DNA of 64,000 nt from Minisyncoccota bacterium (lineage in GTDB: Bacteria; Patescibacteriota; Minisyncoccia; Phycocordibacterales; SBAW01): NCBI GenBank assembly GCA_035548815.1, contig DASZSF010000005.1, positions 182,177 to 246,176 of the forward strand. The letters run 5' to 3'. Numbering within the stretch: position 1 is the first letter of the stretch; each line of letters starts with the position of its first letter. Below the pieces are notes generated by a model. The model had not been told where the DNA came from. It did no database searches and saw nothing but the letters and a program-made list of their open reading frames with translations. A program made the position numbers and the translations under genes. Shown one piece after another: positions 26,394 through 53,934 of the stretch.

Positions 26394-27140
26394 ATGGATG
26401 GTTTTTGGCCTTCTGCAAGTAAATGGTTTAGCGAAAAGACAAGTAGCCCTTTGTATTTTACGTACGTAGGTTTTTTTGTCGTTTGGAATTGGAAATTTTT
26501 TCAAATAATATTTTTAGAAAATTCTGCCCTATTTGAAAAACCCAGAGTTGAATATGTAACATCCAATCTATATCTTCATTGGGGACACGGTTTATTTTTA
26601 GATGGACTCACTAGCTTCCTGTGGCATACTCTTCCACCCGCAATTCTAACCATCATTGCGATATTATTTTTCCCGTATGCCCAAAAATGGGCACTTTTCT
26701 ATTATCTTGAAAGTCGTTTTGAACGAAAAAGAATGTTCCAGTCAAAACAACTTGAACATAATCAATGGTTATTGGATCAGGAAAAACTACGATCTCAAAC
26801 TTTGAAAGATATTGCCACTGAAAAAGTTGAACAGAAAAAAACTGAACGTGAGATAGATAGGGCAACAACTGATCAAGAAAAATGGGATTCTGAGTATAAT
26901 CTGTTGCGCAGTGAGGGAGTTTCCATTGACGCAGCTATCAATAACGCTGAGAAGATAATCTACGGCCATCGTGGTTATTATGGTACTGAGAAATATGAGG
27001 TAAATTATATTTCACCAGATGATCTTTCCTTACTTGATGGAGTAAATCTTATCAATATTCCACGAGGTCAAAATCTAATAGAATTTACAGAAAAAGGGAA
27101 ATATTTTGTGAGAGCAAGTAAAATCAGTAATGCATTTTAA
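26394..27140 (+). CDS. Hypothetical membrane/coiled-coil protein (AT-rich orphan)
   Basis: 248 aa with N-terminal hydrophobic segments, a central coiled coil and a C-terminal globular region. Local GC is about 35% against a ~50% backbone. Confidence 0.5.
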   Translation: MDGFWPSASKWFSEKTSSPLYFTYVGFFVVWNWKFFQIIFLENSALFEKPRVEYVTSNLYLHWGHGLFLDGLTSFLWHTLPPAILTIIAILFFPYAQKWALFYYLESRFERKRMFQSKQLEHNQWLLDQEKLRSQTLKDIATEKVEQKKTEREIDRATTDQEKWDSEYNLLRSEGVSIDAAINNAEKIIYGHRGYYGTEKYEVNYISPDDLSLLDGVNLINIPRGQNLIEFTEKGKYFVRASKISNAF

Positions 27141-27729
27141 AATGACCCTAGGAACCCTTGAATTTTTGAAGGCAGTGGAGCATCCGGAGATGGTTGCGGG
27201 AAAGGTGAGTGAGGCGTTGGGAAAAGTCAGTGGGGCGGATGGGGTTGGGGTAAGTGAGATTGATCCGAGTTTGTCGGACACAGCTGCATTTTGTGAAAAA
27301 TATCAGATTGGGCCGGAGGTGGCTGCAAACTGCGTAATTTTGCGAGCGAAGAAAAGCGGAGCTGGCTCTGAAGGAAATAGCGAAACAACTGGAGGCGAGG
27401 TGCAAGTGCAGTATGTTGCGTGTGTTATTTTGGCCACGACCCGCGTTGATGTGAACGGTTTGATGCGCGAGGTGCTTGGCACTAAAAAGATTTCGTTCGC
27501 GCCAATGGACGAAGCGGTTTCGCTTTCGGAAATGGAATTTGGAGGCATCACGCCCGTTGGCCTTCCGGCTAGCTGGCCGATTTATATAGACAAAGCCGTT
27601 GCTGAATCGCCACAACTCATCATCGGCAGTGGTGTCCGTAAATCAAAACTATTGGTATCAGGAACCTTTCTTTCCACCTTGCCAAACGCTCAAATTTTGG
27701 AAGGATTAGGGCAAGTAAAACAAATATGA
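27130..27729 (+). CDS. YbaK/ProX-type aminoacyl-tRNA deacylase domain protein
   Basis: EMEFGGITPVGLP (GGxxPxG YbaK motif) and SGVRKSKLLV. Confidence 0.65.
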   Translation: MHFKMTLGTLEFLKAVEHPEMVAGKVSEALGKVSGADGVGVSEIDPSLSDTAAFCEKYQIGPEVAANCVILRAKKSGAGSEGNSETTGGEVQVQYVACVILATTRVDVNGLMREVLGTKKISFAPMDEAVSLSEMEFGGITPVGLPASWPIYIDKAVAESPQLIIGSGVRKSKLLVSGTFLSTLPNAQILEGLGQVKQI

Positions 27730-28094
27730 AAAAAGCATACGGCTCATCAGAATTTTCAACGGCACCCCTCTCCTCGGCTCAAGAAATTGAAGGTCTGATA
27801 TTTGTTTCTGGCCAGATCCATGCAGACAAGAATTTGAATCTTATTGGTGAGACTATTGAAGAACGATTCACTGCAGTCATGGCAAATATAGAACGAATTT
27901 TGGTAGAGGCACAGTTAACGAATACTGATATCATTCAAGCGCGTCTCTATTTAACAAATCTTGATGAATTGCCAGCCCTCAATGAGATTTATAAACAATA
28001 TTTCAAGCACCCATTGCCAGCCCGTACAGCAATTGGAGTCTCAAAACTTCCTCTCGGAGCCTCACTTGAAATAGAAGTAATAGCTGCAAGATAG
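27726..28094 (+). CDS. ridA: RidA/YjgF family reactive-intermediate deaminase
   Basis: FVSGQI...ARTAIGVSKLPLGASLEIEVIA is the canonical RidA C-terminal signature. Confidence 0.8.
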   Translation: MKKAYGSSEFSTAPLSSAQEIEGLIFVSGQIHADKNLNLIGETIEERFTAVMANIERILVEAQLTNTDIIQARLYLTNLDELPALNEIYKQYFKHPLPARTAIGVSKLPLGASLEIEVIAAR

Positions 28095-32872: not shown

Positions 32873-33337
32873 CTACGGCGGCAGGAGCTGGACGGAGCCA
32901 TTGAACTCCGTGTCCGCGGCCGCAACCGCTTCGATCGAATCCGGCATTGCCTGACACAGCCGGTTTGGATCTCGCAACTTTGGGTCGCAGATCAATATCT
33001 TGTCTTGATCTGCAGTTTTTCCCTTCTGCCAGACCCAGGCAAGGTGCCCCTGCAAGGTTAGACCCACCCTGCAGGTGCCCGATGGGTTCACCACGGTGCG
33101 AACCATGGTGAACCGCATGTTCCGCTGTACGCTGTCGCAGGCGGCGTTTGGCGTCTGCGACTGATTGGCTGTTGGGGGCCAGGCACCGGAATCCACAATC
33201 GCCATTCCCCAGATAAGGCAGCCAAAGAATATCAGGCCCCCTATCGCTAGGCCAACTACCATCATCATGCGAGACGCTCTCCGCGATGCAGCGACCATCA
33301 GCGGCGGAGCGAGACGGCTTGCATGTACGGGGTCCAT
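32873..33337 (-). CDS. Hypothetical membrane-anchored Cys-containing protein (GC3-rich)
   Basis: 154 aa with an N-terminal TM and 6 Cys in the soluble part. Its ATG overlaps the upstream stop (TAATG), indicating an operon. Confidence 0.45.
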   Translation of the reverse strand: MDPVHASRLAPPLMVAASRRASRMMMVVGLAIGGLIFFGCLIWGMAIVDSGAWPPTANQSQTPNAACDSVQRNMRFTMVRTVVNPSGTCRVGLTLQGHLAWVWQKGKTADQDKILICDPKLRDPNRLCQAMPDSIEAVAAADTEFNGSVQLLPP

Positions 33338-34560
33338 TAGTGGTCTCCTCCGTGATTGTCATGGCCGTGGTTACCGTTGGAGTCGTTTTTCTTGCCGCCT
33401 CCAAACGCTGCTGCCAAGCCTGCGGCAAAGGCGCCGAAGCCTCCGCCGATGTGCTTGGCTGTTTCAGTGGCTTCGGAATTGGTTTCAACCCGGATGATTC
33501 TCACATCCCGGTTGATGCCCTTTTCCTTGGCATTCAGCATCACTTTGTCCATTTCGTCCTGGAAGGTCGTCGTTGGCTTGCCGTCTACCATCGAGGCTTC
33601 GACATTCTTTCTTGCTGTACGTCGATAGATTTCCATCGTGATTTCGCCCTCGCGAGCTTCAGCATAGTCTGTCGGCAGCTTGAGAGTCCCAAGCACGACA
33701 CGTTCTACGGTTGCCCCGTATTGTTCTTCAAAGCTGCTGCCGCGCACGTCCCTGTCTTTGGGTTGTGAGGCTGCGAGGCCTGACTGGCCAGCCGGAGCCA
33801 CTTGTTCCGTGCCCGCAAGCGCTTCGATGAGCGATACCTGGATGTCAGGAATCTTGGCTGACAGCTCGTCCATGGTAACCTTGGCGACCTGTTCGCGCGC
33901 GTCGCTCTCGAAGATATCCAACGCTCCTTCGTTGATTGTTTCTGTTGAGTGGCTGATGTGCACCAACAGCAGCGGACCGAATGTACGCCAACGAACCGTC
34001 GGCTCGGGGAAGGTGGCGGTCAGCCCGTCCATTGTGGGGAACGAGATGGACCGGCCGAACGTACTACTTCGAAGCGATATGTAGTCGGTGTCCGGATTCA
34101 CAACCTCCCACGGCAAGCGGATATTGAACCAGCCTTGTGTAAATACATGCACGCGGCCGGTGAATATGTCCATCGCCATCGCTGCAGTCACTTTTGGCAC
34201 GGGCACCGACAGGTACCACGTGATGCATGAAAACTCAGCGATGAATAGACCGAGCGCCATTCCAATCCGGATTTTCGGTGGGAAGACGACCAGAAGATTC
34301 ATGATGTACGCATCGGGCACCAACACGATGAGCCCGATGACTGCCCATATGAGCAGTCGATCCCATGTATTCCCGGCTTTGCCGGTTATCTTGAGGCCAT
34401 AGCGCATGGCGATTTCTTGAAGCTCTGCCGGAGTTTTCTTTTGGATTCCGGCAGACTGAGAGGTTGGCATGGCTGGCGAATTCTTCGCCGAAGGCCATGC
34501 ATAGACAGCGCACGCAGCCGCGACGGCCACGAGCGAGAGGATGATGATAGGCAGAAGCAT
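33337..34560 (-). CDS. Membrane protein with possible SPFH/band-7-like domain and Gly/His-rich tail (GC3-rich)
   Basis: N-terminal TM helices, a GRVHVFTQGWFNIRLPWEVV segment resembling stomatin GRxxxxGPGLxFIxP, a coiled coil, and a C-terminal GGGFGAF...HGHDNHGGDH. Start placed at MLLP, which has a GAAAGGGG RBS. Confidence 0.4.
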   Translation of the reverse strand: MLLPIIILSLVAVAAACAVYAWPSAKNSPAMPTSQSAGIQKKTPAELQEIAMRYGLKITGKAGNTWDRLLIWAVIGLIVLVPDAYIMNLLVVFPPKIRIGMALGLFIAEFSCITWYLSVPVPKVTAAMAMDIFTGRVHVFTQGWFNIRLPWEVVNPDTDYISLRSSTFGRSISFPTMDGLTATFPEPTVRWRTFGPLLLVHISHSTETINEGALDIFESDAREQVAKVTMDELSAKIPDIQVSLIEALAGTEQVAPAGQSGLAASQPKDRDVRGSSFEEQYGATVERVVLGTLKLPTDYAEAREGEITMEIYRRTARKNVEASMVDGKPTTTFQDEMDKVMLNAKEKGINRDVRIIRVETNSEATETAKHIGGGFGAFAAGLAAAFGGGKKNDSNGNHGHDNHGGDH

Positions 34561-34733
34561 GTTGTCTACCCCTTTCTCAAAGGTCTGTGCGGCAGCGCCG
34601 CAGCGTGGTGAATGTCTGTCCATTCCAGAGCCGAAGCCATGGATGGTATTCCTTAGAATTATATCACAATAAAAGCTCTTTTGTCAAGCTAAAAAAGATA
34701 CAGAAAATAAGCGTTTTTTGGAAATTTGACGAG

Positions 34734-34815
34734 TGCTGGGGAGAGGACTTGAACCTCCATGGATTGCTCCGCCTGCTCCTAAGGCAGGTGCGTATACCAA
34801 TTCCGCCACCCCAGC
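34734..34815 (-). tRNA. tRNA-Leu (anticodon TAG)
   Basis: Reverse complement reads GCTGGGGTGGCGGAATTGGTATACGCACCTGCCTTAGGAGCAGG + long variable arm + GGAGG-TTCAAGT-CCTCT CCCCAGC A. Confidence 0.85.
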
Positions 34816-34829
34816 ATATGTGTAAACGG

Positions 34830-34902
34830 TGCGCCCACGAGGGCTCGAACCTCGGACCATCTCCTTAAGAGGGAGTTGCTCTACCAACTGAGCTATGGGC
34901 GC
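34830..34902 (-). tRNA. tRNA-Lys (anticodon CTT)
   Basis: Reverse complement reads GCGCCCATAGCTCAGTTGGTAGAGCAACTCCCTCTTAAGGAGATGGTCCGAGGTTCGAGCCCTCGTGGGCGCA. Confidence 0.8.
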
Positions 34903-45195: not shown

Positions 45196-46137
45196 ATGAA
45201 AGTGTTTAAGAGCCCGCTCTTTTGGTTTGGCGTATTTTTTCTGACACCTGCGGCAGTTGTGTTCGGGGCTGATGCGCTGACGCCCTGCGGTACGCTCGCG
45301 TTTACGGGGTCGTATGGCCCTGGGTACTTTCTCTCGGCGACCAGCTGTAACTTTTGCTATTTAGCCAAGCTCATCCAAAATATCGTGAATTTTTTGCTGA
45401 TGGTCGCCATCCCGATTTCCGTGGCGATGTTTGCTTGGGCAGGCGTTATGTACTTTACGGCAGGGGGGAATCCGGCGCGGGCTGAACGTGGGCGCAAGAT
45501 TTTTGCTGCAGTATTGTTGGGCTTCTGCATCGCGCTTGGTGCCTGGCTGTTCGTGCAGGTGTTTCTCCAAACGGTAACGAATCCTAATTTCTTCAGCGCA
45601 AACAACTGGATAAATCTTGATTGCAGTACCTTCAATGATCAGCGTTCCCGCAATGTGTCCATCAGCACGGTGCTTTCTGGAAACGGACTTGCGCCTTCGA
45701 CTGTGACAAGCGACCCAACGAGTCCGACTCTAGCGCCACCGCCTGACAGTGGTGAAATTCAGGCAGCTATTTCACAAGCAACAAGTCGTTATATTGGCAC
45801 AGTAACCACTGCCGGTCCAGGTGGGGGAAATTTAGCATGCGCATGGGCGGTAAATAATATTCTCGGCAGCGCAGGCATTTCATCAATTGATGGCGATAGT
45901 GTGCCGGACATGGAGACAGTGCTCAAATCTGGAAGAGGGCAGCCCGTTGACCAGTCGCAAGGCCAGCCGGGTGATATCGTTATACAGGGGAACCAATGGC
46001 ATGTCGGAATTTGCCAAGATGTTGGGTGCACCCGAGTTATATCAAACTCCTCTGGCGCGCGCAGTTTTACGAACGACCAAACGATGTCTGCGTTTTCAAG
46101 AGGTGCGCAAAGCCGTGTATACCGTGTAGTAAATTAA
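45196..46137 (+). CDS. Pilin-like (TrbC/VirB2-type) N-terminal module fused to CHAP/NlpC-P60-like putative cell-wall hydrolase domain
   Basis: The N-terminus has a signal peptide, four Cys and two TM helices (IQNIVNFLLMVAIPISVAMFAWAG...GAWLFVQVF), homologous to the 31.4-kb paralogs. A Ser/Thr/Pro linker follows. The C-terminus has the Cys...His pair GNLACAWAVNNIL...PGDIVIQGNQWHVGI typical of CHAP. Confidence 0.45.
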   Translation: MKVFKSPLFWFGVFFLTPAAVVFGADALTPCGTLAFTGSYGPGYFLSATSCNFCYLAKLIQNIVNFLLMVAIPISVAMFAWAGVMYFTAGGNPARAERGRKIFAAVLLGFCIALGAWLFVQVFLQTVTNPNFFSANNWINLDCSTFNDQRSRNVSISTVLSGNGLAPSTVTSDPTSPTLAPPPDSGEIQAAISQATSRYIGTVTTAGPGGGNLACAWAVNNILGSAGISSIDGDSVPDMETVLKSGRGQPVDQSQGQPGDIVIQGNQWHVGICQDVGCTRVISNSSGARSFTNDQTMSAFSRGAQSRVYRVVN

Positions 46138-46555: not shown

Positions 46556-47632
46556 ATGAAGCGACTCATTCCATCGCGCACAACGCTCATCTCCGCCGGA
46601 GTATTCTTCTTTGGCGTGCCGCTCTATGTGTGGGCGGCGCAAACTGGGCTGGTTCCATGCGGCACTGCCAGCTTTACCGGTTTGTATGATTCTAATTACT
46701 ATTTGCAGGCAACCAATTGCAATCTGTGCTACTTTGCACAGCTGATTCAAAATATCGTCAACTTTTTGCTCATGGTCACCATTCCGATTTCGGTGGCGAT
46801 GTTTGCTTGGGCAGGCTTCAAATATCTTACAGCGGGCGGGGATGTAAAGAGAATAAGCCGCGCACATAATATTTTTTCTTCCGTATTTATCGGTTTTTGC
46901 ATCGCGCTCGGTGCATGGCTGTTTGTGCAGGTTGTTTTGCAAGCAGTCACAAGCAGCAACTATTTGCCCAGCAGCTTTTTTAACTTGAGCTCCTGCAGCC
47001 AGCAAAATGACATACGCCGGCGTGATGAAGCGCTAAGTACTGTATTGAGCGGGAATGGCCTTGCACCAACTGTTACAGGAGCGCCCTCAAGTGGTGGCGG
47101 AGTATTCTGTCCGAGCGGGTATGAGCTTTACCTTGGTTCTTGTTACAACCCTACGACGAACGATATTGTTAGCGCAACGATCGGTTCTTCTGCTGCGAGC
47201 ACAAGAGGTCGTGTCGTAATTACTAACCCGGATGGCACGCAGACCGAGATGATCGACGGCTCACCTTCGTGGCGAAGAAACAATCCGGGAAATATGATAG
47301 CAGGGGCTGGCCAGTACCAGCCGATAGGAATGGATGGAGGATTCGCAGTCTTTGCGAGCTACGAGGACGGGTTCAACGCAATGCTCGCAAACCTTAAAAG
47401 CCCTCTATACCAAAATGGCAACATGACGATAGCAGCTGCTCTCTATAGATGGGCGCCACCCATTCCAGGGTCAGGAAATGACCCTGTTAAATATGCAGCG
47501 TTCGTACAAAGCACAACAGGAATCCCTTCAAGCACAGTAATAAATAACCTCACCCAGGAACAGCTTGTTGCAGTGGCAACAGCGATGCGCACACAAGAAG
47601 GTTGGAGTGTTGGGAGGACAATTTCCCGCTAA
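46556..47632 (+). CDS. Pilin-like N-terminal module fused to a different, unassigned C-terminal domain
   Basis: The N-terminal ~150 aa are paralogous to 45196..46137, with ~88% DNA identity over 46748-46817 vs 45376-45445 and a shared STVLSGNGLAP junction. The C-terminus is unrelated (WRRNNPGNMIAG...GFAVFASYEDGFNAML...YRWAPP). Confidence 0.45.
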   Translation: MKRLIPSRTTLISAGVFFFGVPLYVWAAQTGLVPCGTASFTGLYDSNYYLQATNCNLCYFAQLIQNIVNFLLMVTIPISVAMFAWAGFKYLTAGGDVKRISRAHNIFSSVFIGFCIALGAWLFVQVVLQAVTSSNYLPSSFFNLSSCSQQNDIRRRDEALSTVLSGNGLAPTVTGAPSSGGGVFCPSGYELYLGSCYNPTTNDIVSATIGSSAASTRGRVVITNPDGTQTEMIDGSPSWRRNNPGNMIAGAGQYQPIGMDGGFAVFASYEDGFNAMLANLKSPLYQNGNMTIAAALYRWAPPIPGSGNDPVKYAAFVQSTTGIPSSTVINNLTQEQLVAVATAMRTQEGWSVGRTISR

Positions 47633-48236: not shown

Positions 48237-48310
48237 CTTGGTTTGTATGTTACCATGCCTTTTAATCGGGCCTTTTGACGGGCTCCACAAGCTCTGCTAT
48301 AGTGCTCTGC

Positions 48311-48469
48311 ATGTCACAGGACAGACTCATAAAGCTCGCCTGCAGCAAGTGCAAGCGTATAAACTACTGGTCCTCCAAGAATAAGAAGCTGGTGGAGCGC
48401 AAGATCGAACTCAAAAAGTATTGCAAATGGTGCAAAGCTTCTACGGTTCACAAGGAAGCAAAGAAGTAA
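48311..48469 (+). CDS. rpmG: 50S ribosomal protein L33
   Basis: 52 aa zinc-ribbon protein (CSKCKRINYW...CKWCKASTVHKEAKK). Immediately precedes tRNA-Trp, as in the conserved rpmG-tRNA-Trp-secE locus. Confidence 0.75.
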   Translation: MSQDRLIKLACSKCKRINYWSSKNKKLVERKIELKKYCKWCKASTVHKEAKK

Positions 48470-48546: not shown

Positions 48547-48617
48547 GGGCGCTTAGTTTAGTGGTAGAACAACGGTCTCCAAAACCGTTAGTGGGGGTTC
48601 GATTCCCTCAGCGCCCG
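48547..48617 (+). tRNA. tRNA-Trp (anticodon CCA)
   Basis: GGGCGCTTAGTTTAGTGGTAGAACAACGGTCTCCAAAACCGTTAGTGGGGGTTCGATTCCCTCAGCGCCCG. Confidence 0.85.
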
Positions 48618-48729
48618 CCTAAAGCAAAAAGTATCGGAGGTATGCTGACGCATCTCTTGGGTATTTGACAGTATATAGAGAATATGTCACTGTTAAGTTC
48701 GAACTTAGCACACAGACAGGGAGAGTAAG

Positions 48730-49176
48730 ATGCATTTTGCAGGTGTGGCGTTTCTCAACTTTGGGCCGGATCTCGAGGGCTGCATCATGAAAGCGGCGAC
48801 CGAGACCCTGATCCCGGTCCTCGAGCGTTTTCGTCAGCACTACGGGGCCAGCCCGAGGGAGCTCATCCTCCTGGAAGGCATGATCAAGATCGGCCTCGGC
48901 AAGTCACCCGAGACCCAGAAGTGGATTTCGGAAGACTGCACGGTCATCCACCTTCGGCTCTTCGCGGAGCTTGGTGGCACCGGCCGCGACAGACCAGAGC
49001 TTCAGAGTGGGATCAATCGCCTGATCGCCGAAGTCCTCGGCGCCGACCAGTCCTTCAGCGTCCAGCTCGGAGAGCCGACAGTGAAGTGGCAGATACCGGA
49101 TCCGGAAGGATTCTTCCCTGACAACTGGATTGGTCTCTCCAACGACCATGTCCGCGCACAATCGACGATTGCCTAA
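48730..49176 (+). CDS. Hypothetical protein (GC3-rich island gene)
   Basis: 148 aa with an AGGGAGAG RBS, a TTGACA hexamer 60 nt upstream and strong GC3 bias. Confidence 0.45.
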   Translation: MHFAGVAFLNFGPDLEGCIMKAATETLIPVLERFRQHYGASPRELILLEGMIKIGLGKSPETQKWISEDCTVIHLRLFAELGGTGRDRPELQSGINRLIAEVLGADQSFSVQLGEPTVKWQIPDPEGFFPDNWIGLSNDHVRAQSTIA

Positions 49177-49419
49177 TACCGGAAGTAAGTATTTGGCATC
49201 GTCGGAAATCAAAGGGTCATCCGCAAGGATGGCTCTTTTTTATTCCAAATCGGGAAAAACATCTCTGCTGCTGAGGCCTCATAGTCTCTAATGAAAGTTC
49301 GTTAAAATGAGCTTGTGGGGCAATGACCTGCGGGTACTAACTGCGGACGGCCCGCCACGAGCGAAAAATTAAAAAAGAAAACGCGATGCGGACCCGGGAG
49401 GGTGCACATCGCGCTTGTT

Positions 49420-50538
49420 TCAAAGTCGGATTCTCTCGTAGTTTGGCCGAGGATTCGGCGAGAACACGAACTGGCCCACGTCGACCTTGCCCGACATGAA
49501 GCCGGCCATGCATGTTGAGAGATAGTACACGAACATGCGGTAGAACCGCTCGCCATATTTCCTCATGATCTCCAGCCGGTTGTCCATGAGATTCTGCCGC
49601 CAGGCGGCAAGCGTTCTCACGTAGTCGGCGCCGAAGAATTCCTTGTCCAAGATGTAGAACAGCCCGTCGACGGCCTCTTCAAGCTGCTCGACGAGCGGAA
49701 GCTGGCTGTTGGGGAAGATGTGCTTCTCGAGCCAGGTGTTCATAGCCCACCCTGGATCGCGAGCGACGATACATTGCAGCGCAAAGATGCCGCTGCTTTC
49801 CTTGAGCCACTCCGCCGCCTTCCTAAAGTACTCGCGATAGTGCTTGGGGCCGACATGCTCGATCATGCAGATCGACACGACGGCATCAGCCTTGCCCGAG
49901 TACTGGCGGTAGTCCTGGAGCCGGAACTCCACGTGCGGGCTGTGCACATGGCCGTAGTGTTCGTTGGCGTACGCGCACTGCTCGGGCGAGATTGTCAGTC
50001 CAACGCCGTTGGCATGATATTTCTCGCTAGCCTGGCCCAGGAACGGTCCCCAGCCAGAACCGATGTCGACGACAGTCCAGCCGGGTTTGAGTTCGGCCTT
50101 GCGGCAGAGAAGGTCGGCCTTCTGCCGCTGTGCCTCCTCGAGGGTCGAAACGCCGTCGAAGCGCGCACACGTGTAGAAGAAGCTCGGCCCGAGCATCATC
50201 CGGTAGAATTCAGGGCTTTCGTCGTAGTGGACGCGAGCGACCTTCTTGGAACGCTCGAGGGTCTGGACGTCGAGCACGCCGAAACGCAGCTTCCTCCAAA
50301 GGCGGTCAAACCTCGGGAAGTGCCGGTAGGCTCGGGACTGGACGATGCGAAGGAGAAACCCTTCGATATCCGTGCAGCCCCACCAACCCTCGATGAACGC
50401 ATCGCCTAGGCCAACGGCGCCTCGGAGCGCCACTCCCCGATAGAATCGATCATCGTAGATTTGGGGGTCCCACGGACGTCCACCGTCCGGGATGATGTCA
50501 GCCCTGCGGAACAGGGCGGTCAAGATGGACTTAAACAT
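49420..50538 (-). CDS. cfa: Cyclopropane-fatty-acyl-phospholipid synthase family SAM-dependent methyltransferase
   Basis: VVDIGSGWGPF (SAM motif I), VVSICMIEHVGPKHYREYF and overall CMAS-family layout. GC3-rich. Confidence 0.75.
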   Translation of the reverse strand: MFKSILTALFRRADIIPDGGRPWDPQIYDDRFYRGVALRGAVGLGDAFIEGWWGCTDIEGFLLRIVQSRAYRHFPRFDRLWRKLRFGVLDVQTLERSKKVARVHYDESPEFYRMMLGPSFFYTCARFDGVSTLEEAQRQKADLLCRKAELKPGWTVVDIGSGWGPFLGQASEKYHANGVGLTISPEQCAYANEHYGHVHSPHVEFRLQDYRQYSGKADAVVSICMIEHVGPKHYREYFRKAAEWLKESSGIFALQCIVARDPGWAMNTWLEKHIFPNSQLPLVEQLEEAVDGLFYILDKEFFGADYVRTLAAWRQNLMDNRLEIMRKYGERFYRMFVYYLSTCMAGFMSGKVDVGQFVFSPNPRPNYERIRL

Positions 50539-50652
50539 GGTGTAAAGGTCCTTTCAGTACCTGTGTGGATCTACCCAAGAAACTATCATAGACAAGATGT
50601 TTTTTCTACTGTCCGATATTATCTTTTCATCATCTGTTTGAGGTACACTAGT

Positions 50653-52005
50653 TTGGTGACTCAAGACCTGGCATTCGAAATATTGAAGACAGGTGCGAAT
50701 GTTTTCCTAACGGGAGAACCGGGAGCGGGCAAAACGCATACCATAAACCGCTACATTGCGTACTTGCGCGAGCAGGGCATTGAACCTGCGGTGTGTGCAT
50801 CGACCGGGATTGCCGCAACGCACATCGGCGGGTACACCATCCACTCGTGGAGCGGCATTGGCGTAAAACCGCACCTGACTGAATATGACTTGGACCAAAT
50901 TGCACAGAAAGAAAAGGTCGTAAAACGTGTGCGACTGGCAAAAGTTTTAATCATCGATGAAATTTCGATGCTCTCTGCCGACACGCTCGACATGGTCGAC
51001 CTGGTGATGAGGACACTCCGCGGACGGGAAGAAGCCTTTGGCGGCGTGCAAGTGATTTTTGTCGGCGACTTCTTCCAGCTTCCACCTGTCGTTAAAGCTG
51101 TGCAAAGCGACACACTTGAAATTTCCTATGACGAGCCGCGTTCACCATTCGCATTCCACGCAAAGAGCTGGAAGGATGCAAACCTTCTCCCGTGCTATTT
51201 AGAAGAACAGCACCGTCAGGAAGACGATGAGTTTTTGCTCATACTTTCTGCGATGCGCCGCGGCGATGTGCCAACCGCATTGCGCAAAAAGTTGGAAAGC
51301 CGCGTAGGCGAGCCGCCGGCAAAAAATATCCATACAAAGTTATTCCCGCACAATGCCAATGTCGACCGTCTGAACGATGCTGAATTGCAAAAAATTCCTG
51401 GCCTCCCGCGCCGCTACGACATGCGCTCAAAAGGCGCTCCCCCACTTGTGGAAGCACTCAAACGCAACTGCCTTTCGCCTGAAACACTGTTGCTCAAAGT
51501 TGGCGCGAAGATAATGTTCACTAAAAATGACCCTGAGGGCGAATACTACAATGGCACGCTCGGCGAAGTGCGCGAGTTTTCCAAACTAAGCGGCAACCCG
51601 ATAGTAAAGCTCAAGGCAGGCGGGATTATAGAAGTTGAAAGCGTTGAATGGGCCGTGCAGGACGGCCACAAAAAGCTGGCTACGATAGAACAGCTGCCGC
51701 TGCGACTCGCGTGGGCTATTACCGTGCATAAAAGCCAGGGCATGTCGCTCGACTCAGCTGTCATCGATTTAAGCCAAGCCTTTGAATATGGGCAGGGATA
51801 TGTGGCGCTTTCGCGTGTTCGCACGCTTGATGGATTACATTTGCTCGGGTTCAACGAACGGGCGCTCGAAGTGCATCCAGAAGTCTTGGAACGGGACATG
51901 GCCTTTCGCGAACAGTCAGAGGCTGCCGCAGATGCGTTTACTGCAATGGACCAGAAAGAATTGGATGAGATGCACGAGCGATTTATCCGCGCGGCGCTCG
52001 TATAA
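50653..52005 (+). CDS. Pif1-family 5'-3' DNA helicase (RecD-like)
   Basis: LTGEPGAGKTH (Walker A), CASTGIAATHIGGYTIHSWSGIG (Pif1 signature region), VLIIDEISM, and C-terminal AITVHKSQGMSLD...GYVALSRVR. TTG/GTG start with a GAGG RBS; the upstream ORF-track extension overlaps cfa. Confidence 0.7.
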   Translation: MVTQDLAFEILKTGANVFLTGEPGAGKTHTINRYIAYLREQGIEPAVCASTGIAATHIGGYTIHSWSGIGVKPHLTEYDLDQIAQKEKVVKRVRLAKVLIIDEISMLSADTLDMVDLVMRTLRGREEAFGGVQVIFVGDFFQLPPVVKAVQSDTLEISYDEPRSPFAFHAKSWKDANLLPCYLEEQHRQEDDEFLLILSAMRRGDVPTALRKKLESRVGEPPAKNIHTKLFPHNANVDRLNDAELQKIPGLPRRYDMRSKGAPPLVEALKRNCLSPETLLLKVGAKIMFTKNDPEGEYYNGTLGEVREFSKLSGNPIVKLKAGGIIEVESVEWAVQDGHKKLATIEQLPLRLAWAITVHKSQGMSLDSAVIDLSQAFEYGQGYVALSRVRTLDGLHLLGFNERALEVHPEVLERDMAFREQSEAAADAFTAMDQKELDEMHERFIRAALV

Positions 52006-52937: not shown

Positions 52938-53774
52938 TTAGAGCGTTGCAAGGACGCGGTTGATATCGGTGTGAATTTTCTTCGCCTCGGATTTGGGGTC
53001 AGAAGCGAAGATGATGCTGCTGCCGACGTTGATGACCAATCCGCGCCGGCTGCTATTCATGCCGTTCTTCACGGCTTGGTCGAGATCACCGCCCTGCGTA
53101 CCGATGCCCGGCAGCAAGATCTGCATGGCGCCCACGATGCTGCGTACGAACGAGAGTTCTTCGGGAGCGGTCGCTCCGACGACCACACCGCAGTTGCTGT
53201 ATTTGGCATTCCATTCCTGCGCGTCCCACGCCACCTGCTGGTAGAGCGGACGCGCGTTGCTCCACGGTTCACCCGCTTTGAAGGTCAGCAGATCCTGATA
53301 CTTGCCGGCGCCTGGGTTGCTCGTCCGACACAGGACGAAGATGGTCCGGTCCGGATATTTCTTGAAGAGCGGCTCGAGCGAGTCGTCGCCCAAGTAAGCG
53401 TTGGCGGTCATGGCGTCCGCCCCGAGCATGTCGAAGGCGAACTCCGCGTACTGCTCGGCGCTTATGGCGATATCGCCCGACTTGCAGTCGAGGATGATCG
53501 GCATGTCGGGGTAGGTGTGCTTGAAATGCTTGCACAGCATCTCGAGTTGATTAATCCCGTAGCTCCCTTGTGACAGGAAGTAACCCAGGTTGGACTTAAA
53601 TGCGGCGATATATTCGGCAGCACTGGACGCGCGTGCACGGCAGAACTTCAGAAGACCGTACGGACGGTCGTTCCTATATTGGTCAGGCATTCGATCTTGT
53701 TTCGGATCCAGCCCGAGGCAGAAGCGCCCACCAGCGTCCCAGCGGTGATTCCATTTGGCGTCGAACAACGTCAT
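52938..53774 (-). CDS. pyrF: Orotidine-5'-phosphate decarboxylase (type 2-like), GC3-rich
   Basis: ILDCKSGDIA (active-site Lys region) and LLPGIGTQGGD phosphate-binding loop. AAGGGGGAG RBS. Start placed after the adjacent tRNA. Confidence 0.6.
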   Translation of the reverse strand: MTLFDAKWNHRWDAGGRFCLGLDPKQDRMPDQYRNDRPYGLLKFCRARASSAAEYIAAFKSNLGYFLSQGSYGINQLEMLCKHFKHTYPDMPIILDCKSGDIAISAEQYAEFAFDMLGADAMTANAYLGDDSLEPLFKKYPDRTIFVLCRTSNPGAGKYQDLLTFKAGEPWSNARPLYQQVAWDAQEWNAKYSNCGVVVGATAPEELSFVRSIVGAMQILLPGIGTQGGDLDQAVKNGMNSSRRGLVINVGSSIIFASDPKSEAKKIHTDINRVLATL

Positions 53775-53847: not shown

Positions 53848-53934
53848 TGGTGCCGGGAGGGAGAATCGAACTCCCATGATGTTGCCATCGCGGGATTTTG
53901 AGTCCCGTGCGTCTACCAATTCCGCCATCCCGGC
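53848..53934 (-). tRNA. tRNA-Leu (anticodon CAA), CCA encoded
   Basis: Reverse complement reads GCCGGGATGGCGGAATTGGTAGACGCACGGGACTCAAAATCCCG + long variable arm + GGGAG-TTCGATT-CTCCC TCCCGGC A CCA. Confidence 0.85.

What the first reader, a model, noticed from the sequence alone, without database searches (positions are those of the whole stretch)
48650..50560. High-GC3 island at the tRNA-Trp 3' side replaces the expected secE-nusG context; carries a CFA-synthase-family methyltransferase
rpmG-tRNA-Trp is normally followed by secE-nusG-rplK. Here tRNA-Trp is followed by a GC3-rich hypothetical gene (48730-49176, with TTGACA and AGGGAGAG signals) and a convergent cyclopropane-fatty-acyl-phospholipid-synthase-family gene (49420-50538). 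The backbone resumes at the Pif1-like helicase. Membrane-lipid cyclopropanation is unexpected in a reduced genome that presumably scavenges lipids. The codon bias points to acquisition from a high-GC donor.
Basis: partly seen in the sequence, partly recalled or inferred. Interest (0 to 1): 0.5.

Follow-up and report, generated by a model that had tools for sequence, protein, structure and literature searches.

The report
Acquired cfa gene islet beside tRNA-Trp
A 2-kb piece of foreign-looking DNA sits between the tRNA-Trp gene and a helicase gene of an ultra-small (Paceibacterota/CPR) bacterium and carries a membrane-lipid cyclopropanating enzyme plus an orphan gene. It is an ordinary lineage-specific gene gain at a variable spot, not a displaced secE-nusG operon.

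Summary
ORF148 (48730-49176) and cfa (49420-50538) have GC3 of 0.75 and 0.79, against 0.54 ± 0.09 for the window. With pyrF they are the three highest of 58 genes.

Synteny shows an insertion. Five related Adlerbacteria-like contigs share the backbone ClpB…rpmG–tRNA-Trp–[slot]–pif1–miaA–…–ParB–RelA–TopA–DprA. One of them (L100) has tRNA-Trp followed by pif1 after only 111 bp. The other four carry different cargo in the slot. Homology stops at the tRNA 3' end and resumes 38 bp before pif1, so the islet is 48620-50617.

The "replaces secE-nusG" reading is wrong, because this lineage's backbone has pif1 after tRNA-Trp.

The enzyme is a full-length E. coli-type Cfa, not the mycobacterial type. It belongs to a 100%-bootstrap metagenomic clade at ≤60% identity. 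Those members whose host can be identified are Paceibacterota. All members have Gln in place of the E. coli His266 bicarbonate ligand, as active plant cyclopropane synthases do.

cfa genes are common in CPR and DPANN. Cfa modifies existing phospholipids, so it fits a lipid scavenger.

No integrase and no significant att repeat was found. The donor is unknown, probably about 60% GC, with no actinobacterial signal.

Verdict: a new member of a known kind, of low-to-moderate interest.

The parts
48305..48469 (+). rpmG (ribosomal protein L33). Backbone gene upstream of the tRNA.
   Evidence: PF00471, 61 bits. 87-98% identical to rpmG in L096, L097, L099 and L100.
48547..48619 (+). tRNA-Trp(cca). 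Its 3' end is the left boundary of the islet.
   Evidence: ARAGORN and Rfam RF00005, 71.9 bits. Nearly identical in L096 and L097 (more diverged in L099), and similarity ends at the last tRNA base.
48620..50617 (.). The inserted islet (1,998 bp): two convergent stand-alone transcription units.
   Evidence: The boundaries come from alignments with the relatives. The corresponding gap in L100 is 111 bp with no gene. By DNA the islet matches only its own genome (L001, L002).
48665..48725 (+). Putative promoter (TTGACA at 48665) and ribosome-binding site (AGGGAGAG, 48718-48725) of ORF148.
   Evidence: Read directly from the sequence. The consensus scan did not call a full -35/-10 pair here, so the promoter is only inferred.
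48730..49176 (+). ORF148, an orphan gene of unknown function. It is probably coding.
   Evidence: GC1/GC2/GC3 of 0.62/0.42/0.75 is a coding-type periodicity. No homologue beyond itself in 5.8 billion proteins or in 1.84 billion representatives, apart from one spurious 46-aa hit. No Pfam, NCBIfam, PHROG, PADLOC or PDB match. The AF2 model has pLDDT 40.
49211..49248 (+). Intrinsic terminator of ORF148: a 12-bp stem followed by a T-run.
   Evidence: Terminator scan. Folding gives -28.9 kcal/mol, z = -3.7.
49350..49367 (+). Weak att-like repeat of the tRNA-Trp 3' end plus flank (GCCCGCCACGAGCGAAAA, 14 of 18 matches). Probably chance.
   Evidence: Repeat D6. Two equally good matches occur elsewhere in the 128 kb of both strands. 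The full 24-nt tRNA 3' end has no second copy at ≤3 mismatches.
49362..49416 (-). Intrinsic terminator of cfa: a 16-bp interrupted stem (49379-49416) followed by a U-tract.
   Evidence: Inverted repeat I7. Folding gives -31.7 kcal/mol, z = -2.8.
49420..50538 (-). cfa, a cyclopropane-fatty-acyl-phospholipid synthase family enzyme (372 aa, full length including the N-terminal domain).
   Evidence: PF02353, 238 bits. NF008686, 354.6 bits, against a cut-off of 400. PDB 6BQC, 234 bits, aligned over 5-361 vs 20-373. The SAM motif and 4 of 5 bicarbonate ligands are kept, with His266(Ec) replaced by Gln255.
50618..50655 (+). Conserved pif1 upstream (promoter) region. The backbone resumes here.
   Evidence: ATTATCTTTTCATCATCTGTTTGRGGTACACT is shared with L097 and partly with L096 and L099.
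50656..52005 (+). Pif1-family helicase, a backbone gene.
   Evidence: PF05970, 118 bits. 69-85% identical orthologues with conserved downstream synteny.

Best explanation
The 1,998 bp at 48620-50617 are a lineage-specific gene islet inserted into the short intergenic gap between tRNA-Trp and pif1 of an Adlerbacteria-like Paceibacterota (CPR) genome. Related genomes fill this gap with different cargo, or leave it empty.

The islet holds two self-contained, convergent transcription units, each with its own terminator.
1. An orphan 148-aa gene.
2. cfa, an E. coli-type cyclopropane-fatty-acyl-phospholipid synthase.

Inferred function: Cfa binds the membrane through its N-terminal domain. It transfers a methylene group from S-adenosylmethionine onto cis double bonds of acyl chains already built into phospholipids. 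This turns them into cyclopropane rings, which stiffens and protects the membrane under acid or oxidative stress and in stationary phase. Because the substrate is a finished phospholipid, the enzyme is useful to a cell that takes its lipids from a host.

Inferred origin: the third-position GC excess, the lack of any homologue above 60% identity, and the absence of cfa from the same slot in relatives point to horizontal acquisition from an unsampled donor of roughly 60% GC. That donor carried the Gln-variant cfa of a clade seen mostly on Paceibacterota-like contigs. No integrase or att site remains, so the entry route is unknown. Recombination after DNA uptake and a decayed integrative element are both possible.

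Shown: the anatomy, the insertion and the family assignment. Inferred: the enzyme product, the donor and the entry mechanism.
For: Insertion:
- L100 has rpmG, then tRNA-Trp, then 111 bp, then pif1.
- L099 has a 111-aa SMR-like gene in the slot. L097 has an FMN reductase. L096 has 6.8 kb of cargo including a second tRNA-Trp.
- The backbone proteins are 69-88% identical.
- Similarity ends at the tRNA 3' end and resumes 38 bp before pif1.
- None of the five related loci contains cfa within the 14-21 kb fetched around pif1.

Foreignness:
- The GC3 values rank among the top three of 58 genes.
- The best non-self Cfa hit is about 60% identical among 5.8 billion proteins, whereas the neighbouring Pif1 has 16 hits at ≥76%.
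- ORF148 has no homologue.
- On five of the six distinct other contigs measured (L083, L087, L090/L091, L093, L094), the cfa homologue has a GC equal to or below that of its contig.

Enzyme identity. The SAM motif and C124, E227, I257 and Y306 are conserved. Q255 is invariant in the 32-member clade. The same His-to-Gln change occurs in the cotton cyclopropane synthases (GhCPS; PMC3132707).

Clade:
- Bootstrap 200/200 for the 32-member clade and 160/200 for the window's position.
- L085 shares the TrxB-FtsZ-FtsA-YbeY gene order with the window. Its FtsZ is in a 90% cluster named Paceibacterota.
- The P0007 cluster contains a Parcubacteria-labelled fragment.
- The Dus protein of L094 is 66% identical to the window's.

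Expression signals: terminators follow both genes.
Against: - No integrase, transposase or significant direct repeat marks the islet, so the entry mechanism is unsupported.
- The GC3 excess is only 2.4-2.9 sd, and rpmG (0.70) shows that some native genes are also GC3-rich.
- Only ±10 kb of each relative was seen, so cfa could exist elsewhere in their genomes.
- The score is below NCBI's equivalog cut-off (354.6 against 400), and one catalytic-site ligand differs, so the product is not proven to be a cyclopropane rather than a methyl or methylene branch.
- One clade member (L083) sits on a contig with sigma-32 and an RND pump, so the clade may not be CPR-only.
- Both contigs that carry the islet are 100% identical and may come from the same reads.
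Confidence: 0.72

Rival explanations
1. The islet is a decayed tRNA-targeting integrative element. It entered by site-specific recombination at the tRNA-Trp 3' end and later lost its integrase. It may have arrived in two steps, cfa first and the ORF148 module second.
For: - The left boundary is exactly the tRNA 3' end.
- L096 has two full tRNA-Trp genes bracketing a 3.1-kb insert whose first gene has GC3 0.81.
- A 14-of-18 repeat of the tRNA end plus flank lies at 49350-49367, between the two modules. Its first 11 nt equal the tRNA-end/flank junction of L097.
Against: - There is no integrase or recombinase in the islet or in any relative's slot.
- The repeat is no better than two chance matches elsewhere in the window.
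- The 24-nt tRNA end has no second copy.
- The empty gap is only 111 bp, so any tolerated insertion must appear to abut the tRNA.
Confidence: 0.15
2. cfa and ORF148 are ancestral genes of this lineage that were lost from the slot in relatives. Their high GC3 reflects codon selection or local mutation bias, not transfer.
For: - cfa identity to Paceibacterota homologues (47% to L085, 58% to L094) is in the same range as backbone proteins of those genomes (FtsA 46%, TrxB 55%, FtsZ 67%, Dus 66%).
- Some native genes are GC3-rich, for example rpmG at 0.70 and S1 at 0.65.
Against: - The most distant relative sampled (L100) has the empty site, and the four nearer ones have other cargo. This reading would therefore need several independent losses.
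- There is no Cfa above 60% identity, although many relatives at 76-88% backbone identity are in the same database.
- The GC3 exceeds that of every ribosomal or housekeeping gene in the window.
- cfa homologues sit at different genomic positions with no shared neighbours.
Confidence: 0.1
3. The islet came from a high-GC non-CPR donor such as Actinobacteria.
For: GC3 of 0.75-0.79 implies a donor of about 60% GC (inference from the known relation between GC3 and genomic GC). One clade member (L083) lies on a contig with proteobacterium-like genes.
Against: - The mycolic-acid/actinobacterial models score far lower than the E. coli-type ones (160 against 355 bits; ≤138 against 234 bits) and lack the N-terminal domain.
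- None of the 80 best GTDB species-representative loci is actinobacterial, and all are ≤42% identical.
- The 100%-supported clade contains Paceibacterota contigs.
- GC-richer contigs exist within that clade's hosts, for example L094 flanks at 0.58 GC.
Confidence: 0.05
4. The islet is an assembly or binning chimera: foreign reads joined into a CPR contig.
For: There is an abrupt compositional change and no homologue of ORF148.
Against: - The same 8.9-kb stretch, including both junctions, is found 100% identical in a separately assembled Logan contig. The proteins also occur on contigs of 283 kb and 291 kb.
- Both junctions fall in intergenic DNA, with intact terminators and the conserved pif1 promoter.
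Confidence: 0.03

Closest known systems
Escherichia coli cyclopropane fatty acid synthase (Cfa, PDB 6BQC; NCBIfam NF008686)
   Same: - Same two-domain, full-length architecture, aligned over residues 5-361 against 20-373.
- SAM-binding D-x-G-x-G-x-G motif.
- Bicarbonate ligands Cys, Glu, Ile and Tyr conserved.
- Presumably the same post-synthetic methylenation of phospholipid cis double bonds.
   Different: - About 35-40% identity.
- The score of 354.6 bits is below the 400-bit equivalog cut-off.
- His266 is replaced by Gln.
- The host is a CPR bacterium with no evident lipid synthesis genes in the window.
Plant cyclopropane synthases (cotton GhCPS1/2, Sterculia SfCPS)
   Same: They share the His266-to-Gln substitution at the bicarbonate site while still belonging to the cyclopropane fatty acid synthase family (PMC3132707).
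   Different: The plant enzymes are large fusion proteins with an N-terminal oxidase-like domain and act on phosphatidylcholine-bound oleate. No specific phylogenetic link was tested here.
Mycobacterial mycolic-acid cyclopropane synthases and methyltransferases (CmaA1/2, PcaA, MmaA; NF040660)
   Same: Same catalytic CMAS fold, PF02353.
   Different: They lack the N-terminal domain, act on mycolic acids, and score much lower (≤138 bits in PDB; 160 bits against 355 in NCBIfam). The window protein is not of this type.
tRNA-linked genomic islands and islets of bacteria
   Same: - Located at the 3' side of a tRNA gene.
- Deviant composition.
- Accessory cargo.
- Absent from related genomes, with an identifiable empty site.
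- The same site is used repeatedly in relatives.
   Different: It is only 2 kb long. It has no integrase, no tRNA-derived direct repeat and no mobility genes.

Membership tests
Cyclopropane-fatty-acyl-phospholipid synthase (E. coli-type Cfa) | CMAS catalytic domain (PF02353) above the gathering score | tested here: met
   238 bits against a cut-off of 27, covering profile positions 4-273 of 273.
Cyclopropane-fatty-acyl-phospholipid synthase (E. coli-type Cfa) | Full-length architecture with the N-terminal (membrane/lipid-binding) domain of E. coli Cfa | tested here: met
   Aligned to 6BQC over query 5-361 against chain 20-373, and to NF008686 over 2-364 against 16-375 of 383.
Cyclopropane-fatty-acyl-phospholipid synthase (E. 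coli-type Cfa) | SAM-binding glycine-rich motif (V/I-L/V-D-I-G-C/S-G-W-G) | tested here: met
   The window has VVDIGSGWG. D158, G160 and G162 are invariant across all 84 aligned sequences.
Cyclopropane-fatty-acyl-phospholipid synthase (E. coli-type Cfa) | Five bicarbonate-binding residues (E. coli C139, E239, H266, I268, Y317) | tested here: inconclusive
   C124, E227, I257 and Y306 are conserved. H266 is replaced by Q255, which is invariant in the 32-member clade and present in 5 of 52 other sequences. The same change exists in the cotton cyclopropane synthases (PMC3132707).
Cyclopropane-fatty-acyl-phospholipid synthase (E. coli-type Cfa) | Score above NCBI's curated equivalog cut-off (NF008686) | tested here: not met
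   354.6 bits against a cut-off of 400. It is the best-scoring model by far, but formally below equivalog level.
Cyclopropane-fatty-acyl-phospholipid synthase (E. coli-type Cfa) | Formation of cyclopropane rings on phospholipid acyl chains | not testable with these tools
   This needs heterologous expression in a Δcfa host and GC-MS of fatty acid methyl esters.
Integrase-mediated tRNA-linked genomic island | Insertion at the 3' end of a tRNA gene, with an empty site in relatives | tested here: met
Integrase-mediated tRNA-linked genomic island | Integrase or recombinase gene in the island | tested here: not met
   There are only two ORFs. ORF148 has no family match and the other is cfa.
Integrase-mediated tRNA-linked genomic island | Direct repeat of the tRNA 3' end at the distal boundary (attL/attR) | tested here: not met
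   There is no second copy of the 24-nt tRNA end at ≤3 mismatches. The best internal repeat matches 14 of 18 nt at background frequency and is not at the distal boundary.
Conserved rpmG-tRNA-Trp-secE-nusG-rplK context | secE-nusG directly downstream of tRNA-Trp in this lineage | tested here: not met
   In L096, L097, L099 and L100 and in the window, tRNA-Trp is followed by pif1, directly or after unrelated cargo. No nusG or rplK is in the window or in these loci.

The most novel reading that the evidence does not exclude
In this Paceibacterota family the 3' flanks of tRNA genes (tRNA-Trp and tRNA-Leu-caa) may act as integrase-free cargo slots that are refilled repeatedly from a CPR gene pool. 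One slot takes different accessory genes in each genome: cfa, an FMN reductase, an SMR-like gene, or a second tRNA-Trp plus a PEP-utilising enzyme. The other slot holds three mutually unalignable versions of the same enzyme (pyrF), or nothing. The Gln-variant Cfa would then be a CPR-adapted enzyme that remodels host-derived phospholipids after uptake. That would be a rare case of a lipid-scavenging episymbiont chemically editing a membrane it cannot synthesise.
Probability: 0.2. Interest if true: 0.5.

Novelty: new member of a known kind. Interest (0 to 1): 0.27.

Why it matters
- **Annotation.** The result corrects a tempting misreading. The missing secE-nusG is a feature of the lineage's backbone, not a consequence of the island.
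- **CPR biology.** It gives a clean, small example of gene gain in a CPR genome with a mapped empty site. It suggests that tRNA-flanking gaps are recurrent exchange points in these reduced genomes.
- **Physiology.** A Cfa enzyme in an organism thought to scavenge lipids is sensible, because the enzyme edits finished phospholipids. If it is active, cyclopropane fatty acids in environmental lipid profiles could partly derive from CPR cells modifying host lipids.
- **Scope.** None of this overturns current knowledge.

Tried and rejected
1. **cfa-tRNA-Trp linkage in L094.** ARAGORN called a 98-nt tRNA-Trp next to the 58%-identical cfa. Rfam finds no tRNA there even at E ≤ 1, only a genuine tRNA-Gln upstream. 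Rejected.
2. **att repeat.** The 24-nt tRNA end has no second copy. The 18-mer at 49350 matches at background level.
3. **ORF148 function.** Nothing usable came from Pfam, NCBIfam, PHROGs, PADLOC, PDB sequences, the 5.8-billion-protein word search or the 1.84-billion-representative HMMER scan. The only hit is a 46-aa stretch of a eukaryote-like SAP/SPRY/AAA_33 protein. The AF2 single-sequence model has pLDDT 40, so no fold search was run.
4. **A conserved partner gene next to cfa.** Neighbours of cfa in seven loci share no similarity with each other or with ORF148.
5. **Viral vector.** IMG/VR holds only homologues at ≤39% identity, about half of them from giant-virus bins, and nothing for ORF148.
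6. **Species-representative genomes.** The first genome-contig scan, with the single protein, found nothing.
7. **Metagenome scan with Pif1.** It gave one uninformative 51% locus with no tRNA.
8. **Taxon names for clade contigs.** Most carry none. Only the L085 FtsZ cluster and the P0007 cluster gave labels.
Full report
**Source and observation.** The window comes from a 283-kb contig of a Candidatus Paceibacterota MAG (GCA_964570245.1, CAZMXM010000007.1).
- rpmG at 48305-48469 (PF00471);
- tRNA-Trp(cca) at 48547-48619;
- a 148-aa ORF at 48730-49176, preceded by TTGACA and AGGGAGAG;
- a convergent 372-aa CMAS-family gene at 49420-50538;
- a Pif1-family helicase from 50656.

**Composition.** Third-position GC is 0.748 for ORF148 and 0.787 for cfa. 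The other 55 genes of the window average 0.536 ± 0.088, giving z = 2.4 and 2.9. Together with pyrF (0.762) these are the three highest of 58 genes, while GC1 and GC2 are normal. The intergenic DNA on either side is AT-rich, at 0.40 and 0.38 GC. The anomaly is real, though moderate.

**Synteny shows an insertion, and nothing was displaced.** The neighbouring Pif1 helicase has many close relatives, with 16 hits at ≥76% identity, one of them labelled Candidatus Adlerbacteria. Five of their contigs were read: L096, L097, L098/L099 and L100, plus one without DNA. All share the backbone …ClpB–(tRNA-Tyr)–T4SS-pilin-like genes–rpmG–tRNA-Trp–[slot]–pif1–miaA–[pyrF slot]–tRNA-Leu(caa)–ParB–His-phosphatase–RelA/SpoT–TopA–DprA–SerRS. 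Protein identities to the window are 69-88% for Pif1, ParB, RelA and TopA.

The slot between tRNA-Trp and pif1 differs in every genome:
- **L100:** 111 bp with no gene, which is the empty site.
- **L099:** 472 bp with a 111-aa SMR-like gene.
- **L097:** 698 bp with an FMN reductase.
- **L096:** 6.8 kb with a second complete tRNA-Trp and eight genes, the first of which has GC3 0.81.
- **The window:** 2,036 bp with ORF148 and cfa.

In DNA alignments, similarity ends at the last base of the tRNA. It resumes at about window 50618, in a conserved pif1 upstream element 38 bp before the start codon. The islet is therefore 48620-50617. None of the related loci contains cfa.

**The cargo.**
- **cfa.** It is a full-length E. 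coli-type cyclopropane-fatty-acyl-phospholipid synthase. NF008686 scores 354.6 bits over 2-364 (cut-off 400), and PDB 6BQC scores 234 bits over 5-361. Mycolic-acid enzymes score 160 bits (NCBIfam) and ≤138 bits (PDB) and cover only the catalytic domain.
- **Catalytic residues.** The SAM motif and four of the five bicarbonate ligands are conserved. The fifth, E. coli His266, is Gln255 here. The cotton cyclopropane synthases carry the same His-to-Gln change (PMC3132707), so the substitution is compatible with cyclopropanation but does not prove it.
- **ORF148.** It shows coding-type periodicity, a ribosome-binding site and a strong terminator. It has no homologue anywhere, and its predicted structure is unusable.
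- **Organisation.** cfa also has its own hairpin-plus-U-tract terminator. The islet therefore consists of two independent, convergent units.

**Where cfa comes from.** The best non-self hit among 5.8 billion proteins is about 60% identical. A neighbour-joining tree of 84 sequences puts the window protein in a 32-member clade with 200/200 bootstrap support. Within it, the window protein is sister to an 18-member subclade (160/200). Every member of the clade has the Gln variant.

The hosts that can be identified are Paceibacterota-like:
- L085 shares the TrxB-FtsZ-FtsA-YbeY order with the window at 39-67% identity. Its FtsZ lies in a 90% cluster labelled Paceibacterota.
- The P0007 cluster includes a Parcubacteria-labelled fragment.
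- The Dus protein of L094 is 66% identical to the window's.

One member (L083) sits beside sigma-32 and an RND pump, so the clade may not be exclusive to CPR. Outside the clade, identities fall to about 40% across many phyla. These include other CPR (Uhrbacteria, Buchananbacteria, Saccharibacteria, Peribacteria) and DPANN archaea, with no Actinobacteria among the best 80 species-representative loci.

In the other clade members cfa sits at different genomic positions with unrelated neighbours. On five of the six other distinct contigs, its GC is equal to or below that of the contig. The GC3 excess is therefore particular to this genome. Backbone neighbours have many relatives at 76-88% identity, but cfa has none above 60%. 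The sampled close relatives thus most likely lack an orthologue. The gene probably came from an unsampled donor of roughly 60% GC, possibly another CPR bacterium. Contigs of 0.58 GC do occur among the clade's hosts (L094). This last step is inference.

**How it got there.** No integrase, transposase or phage-like gene is present. The 24-nt tRNA 3' end has no second copy. The best internal repeat, at 49350-49367, matches 14 of 18 nt and lies between the two modules. It is no better than two chance matches elsewhere in the window. Viral contigs hold only distant homologues. The tandem tRNA-Trp genes of L096 hint that tRNA-directed integration happens in this family. For the window itself the route remains open. 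It could be recombination after DNA uptake, and the backbone does encode DprA. It could equally be a decayed integrative element.

**Is cfa surprising here?** It is not very surprising. Many Patescibacteria and DPANN genomes are annotated with it, and the literature has noted it for Woesearchaeota (PMC11481508). Cfa modifies unsaturated acyl chains of phospholipids already in the bilayer, using only SAM (established enzymology of E. coli Cfa). It therefore needs no fatty-acid synthesis and suits a lipid scavenger.

**Assembly artefact?** This is unlikely. An independently produced Logan contig of 8.9 kb is 100% identical across both junctions. Both junctions also lie in intergenic DNA with intact regulatory elements.

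**Verdict.** This is a small, lineage-specific, compositionally foreign islet in a hypervariable tRNA-Trp/pif1 gap of an Adlerbacteria-like CPR genome. It carries a probably functional Gln-variant Cfa and an orphan gene. It is a new member of known kinds (tRNA-flank islet; Cfa family). Interest is low to moderate. What adds to the interest is the recurrent reuse of tRNA-flank slots in this family, including a second slot where pyrF has been swapped.

Noticed in passing
window 52938-53774 (-), next to tRNA-Leu(caa) at 53848-53934: pyrF is the second-highest GC3 gene of the window (0.76) and is a type-2 OMP decarboxylase (TIGR02127, 201 bits). At the same syntenic position (miaA | pyrF | tRNA-Leu | ParB), L096 and L099 each carry a type-1-like pyrF. 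These are not alignable with the window's pyrF or with each other. L097 and L100 have no pyrF there. One slot at the 3' side of a tRNA therefore holds three different versions of one enzyme, or is empty. L085 has cfa-NUDIX-pyrF(type 2, 39% identical)-pyrE adjacent to one another.
   Followed up: partly
L096 1010-1081 and 4163-4236: A close relative (Pif1 80% identical) has two complete, slightly different tRNA-Trp(cca) genes. They bracket a 3.1-kb insert holding a 190-aa membrane protein (GC3 0.81) and a 668-aa PPDK_N/PEP-utilising enzyme (GC3 0.40). This looks like tRNA-directed integration at the same hot spot.
   Followed up: partly
window 26394-28094: There is a low-GC patch. The 248-aa ORF at 26394-27140 has GC3 0.26 (z = -3.2), and the RidA-like gene at 27726-28094 has GC3 0.31. 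This is a compositional outlier in the opposite direction to the cfa islet.
   Followed up: no
window 45196-46137 and 46556-47632: Two paralogous T4SS-pilin-like (PF18895) genes flank a 137-aa gene between tRNA-Tyr and rpmG. This block is also variable in length and copy number among the relatives.
   Followed up: no
window 32873-34623 (-), next to tRNA-Leu(tag) and tRNA-Lys at 34733-34902: Two adjacent hypothetical membrane-protein genes have raised GC3 (0.69 and 0.65) and lie beside a tRNA pair. This may be another tRNA-flank acquisition.
   Followed up: no
L094 2491-2588: ARAGORN reports a 98-nt tRNA-Trp containing two T-arm-like segments, 270 bp downstream of a 58%-identical cfa. Rfam's tRNA model does not match it. 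It may be a spurious call or a degenerate tRNA remnant.
   Followed up: partly
L097 3964-6655 and 15905-18318: In this relative, clpB, topA and relA are split into several ORFs. This points to frameshifts, sequencing errors or pseudogenisation in that assembly.
   Followed up: no
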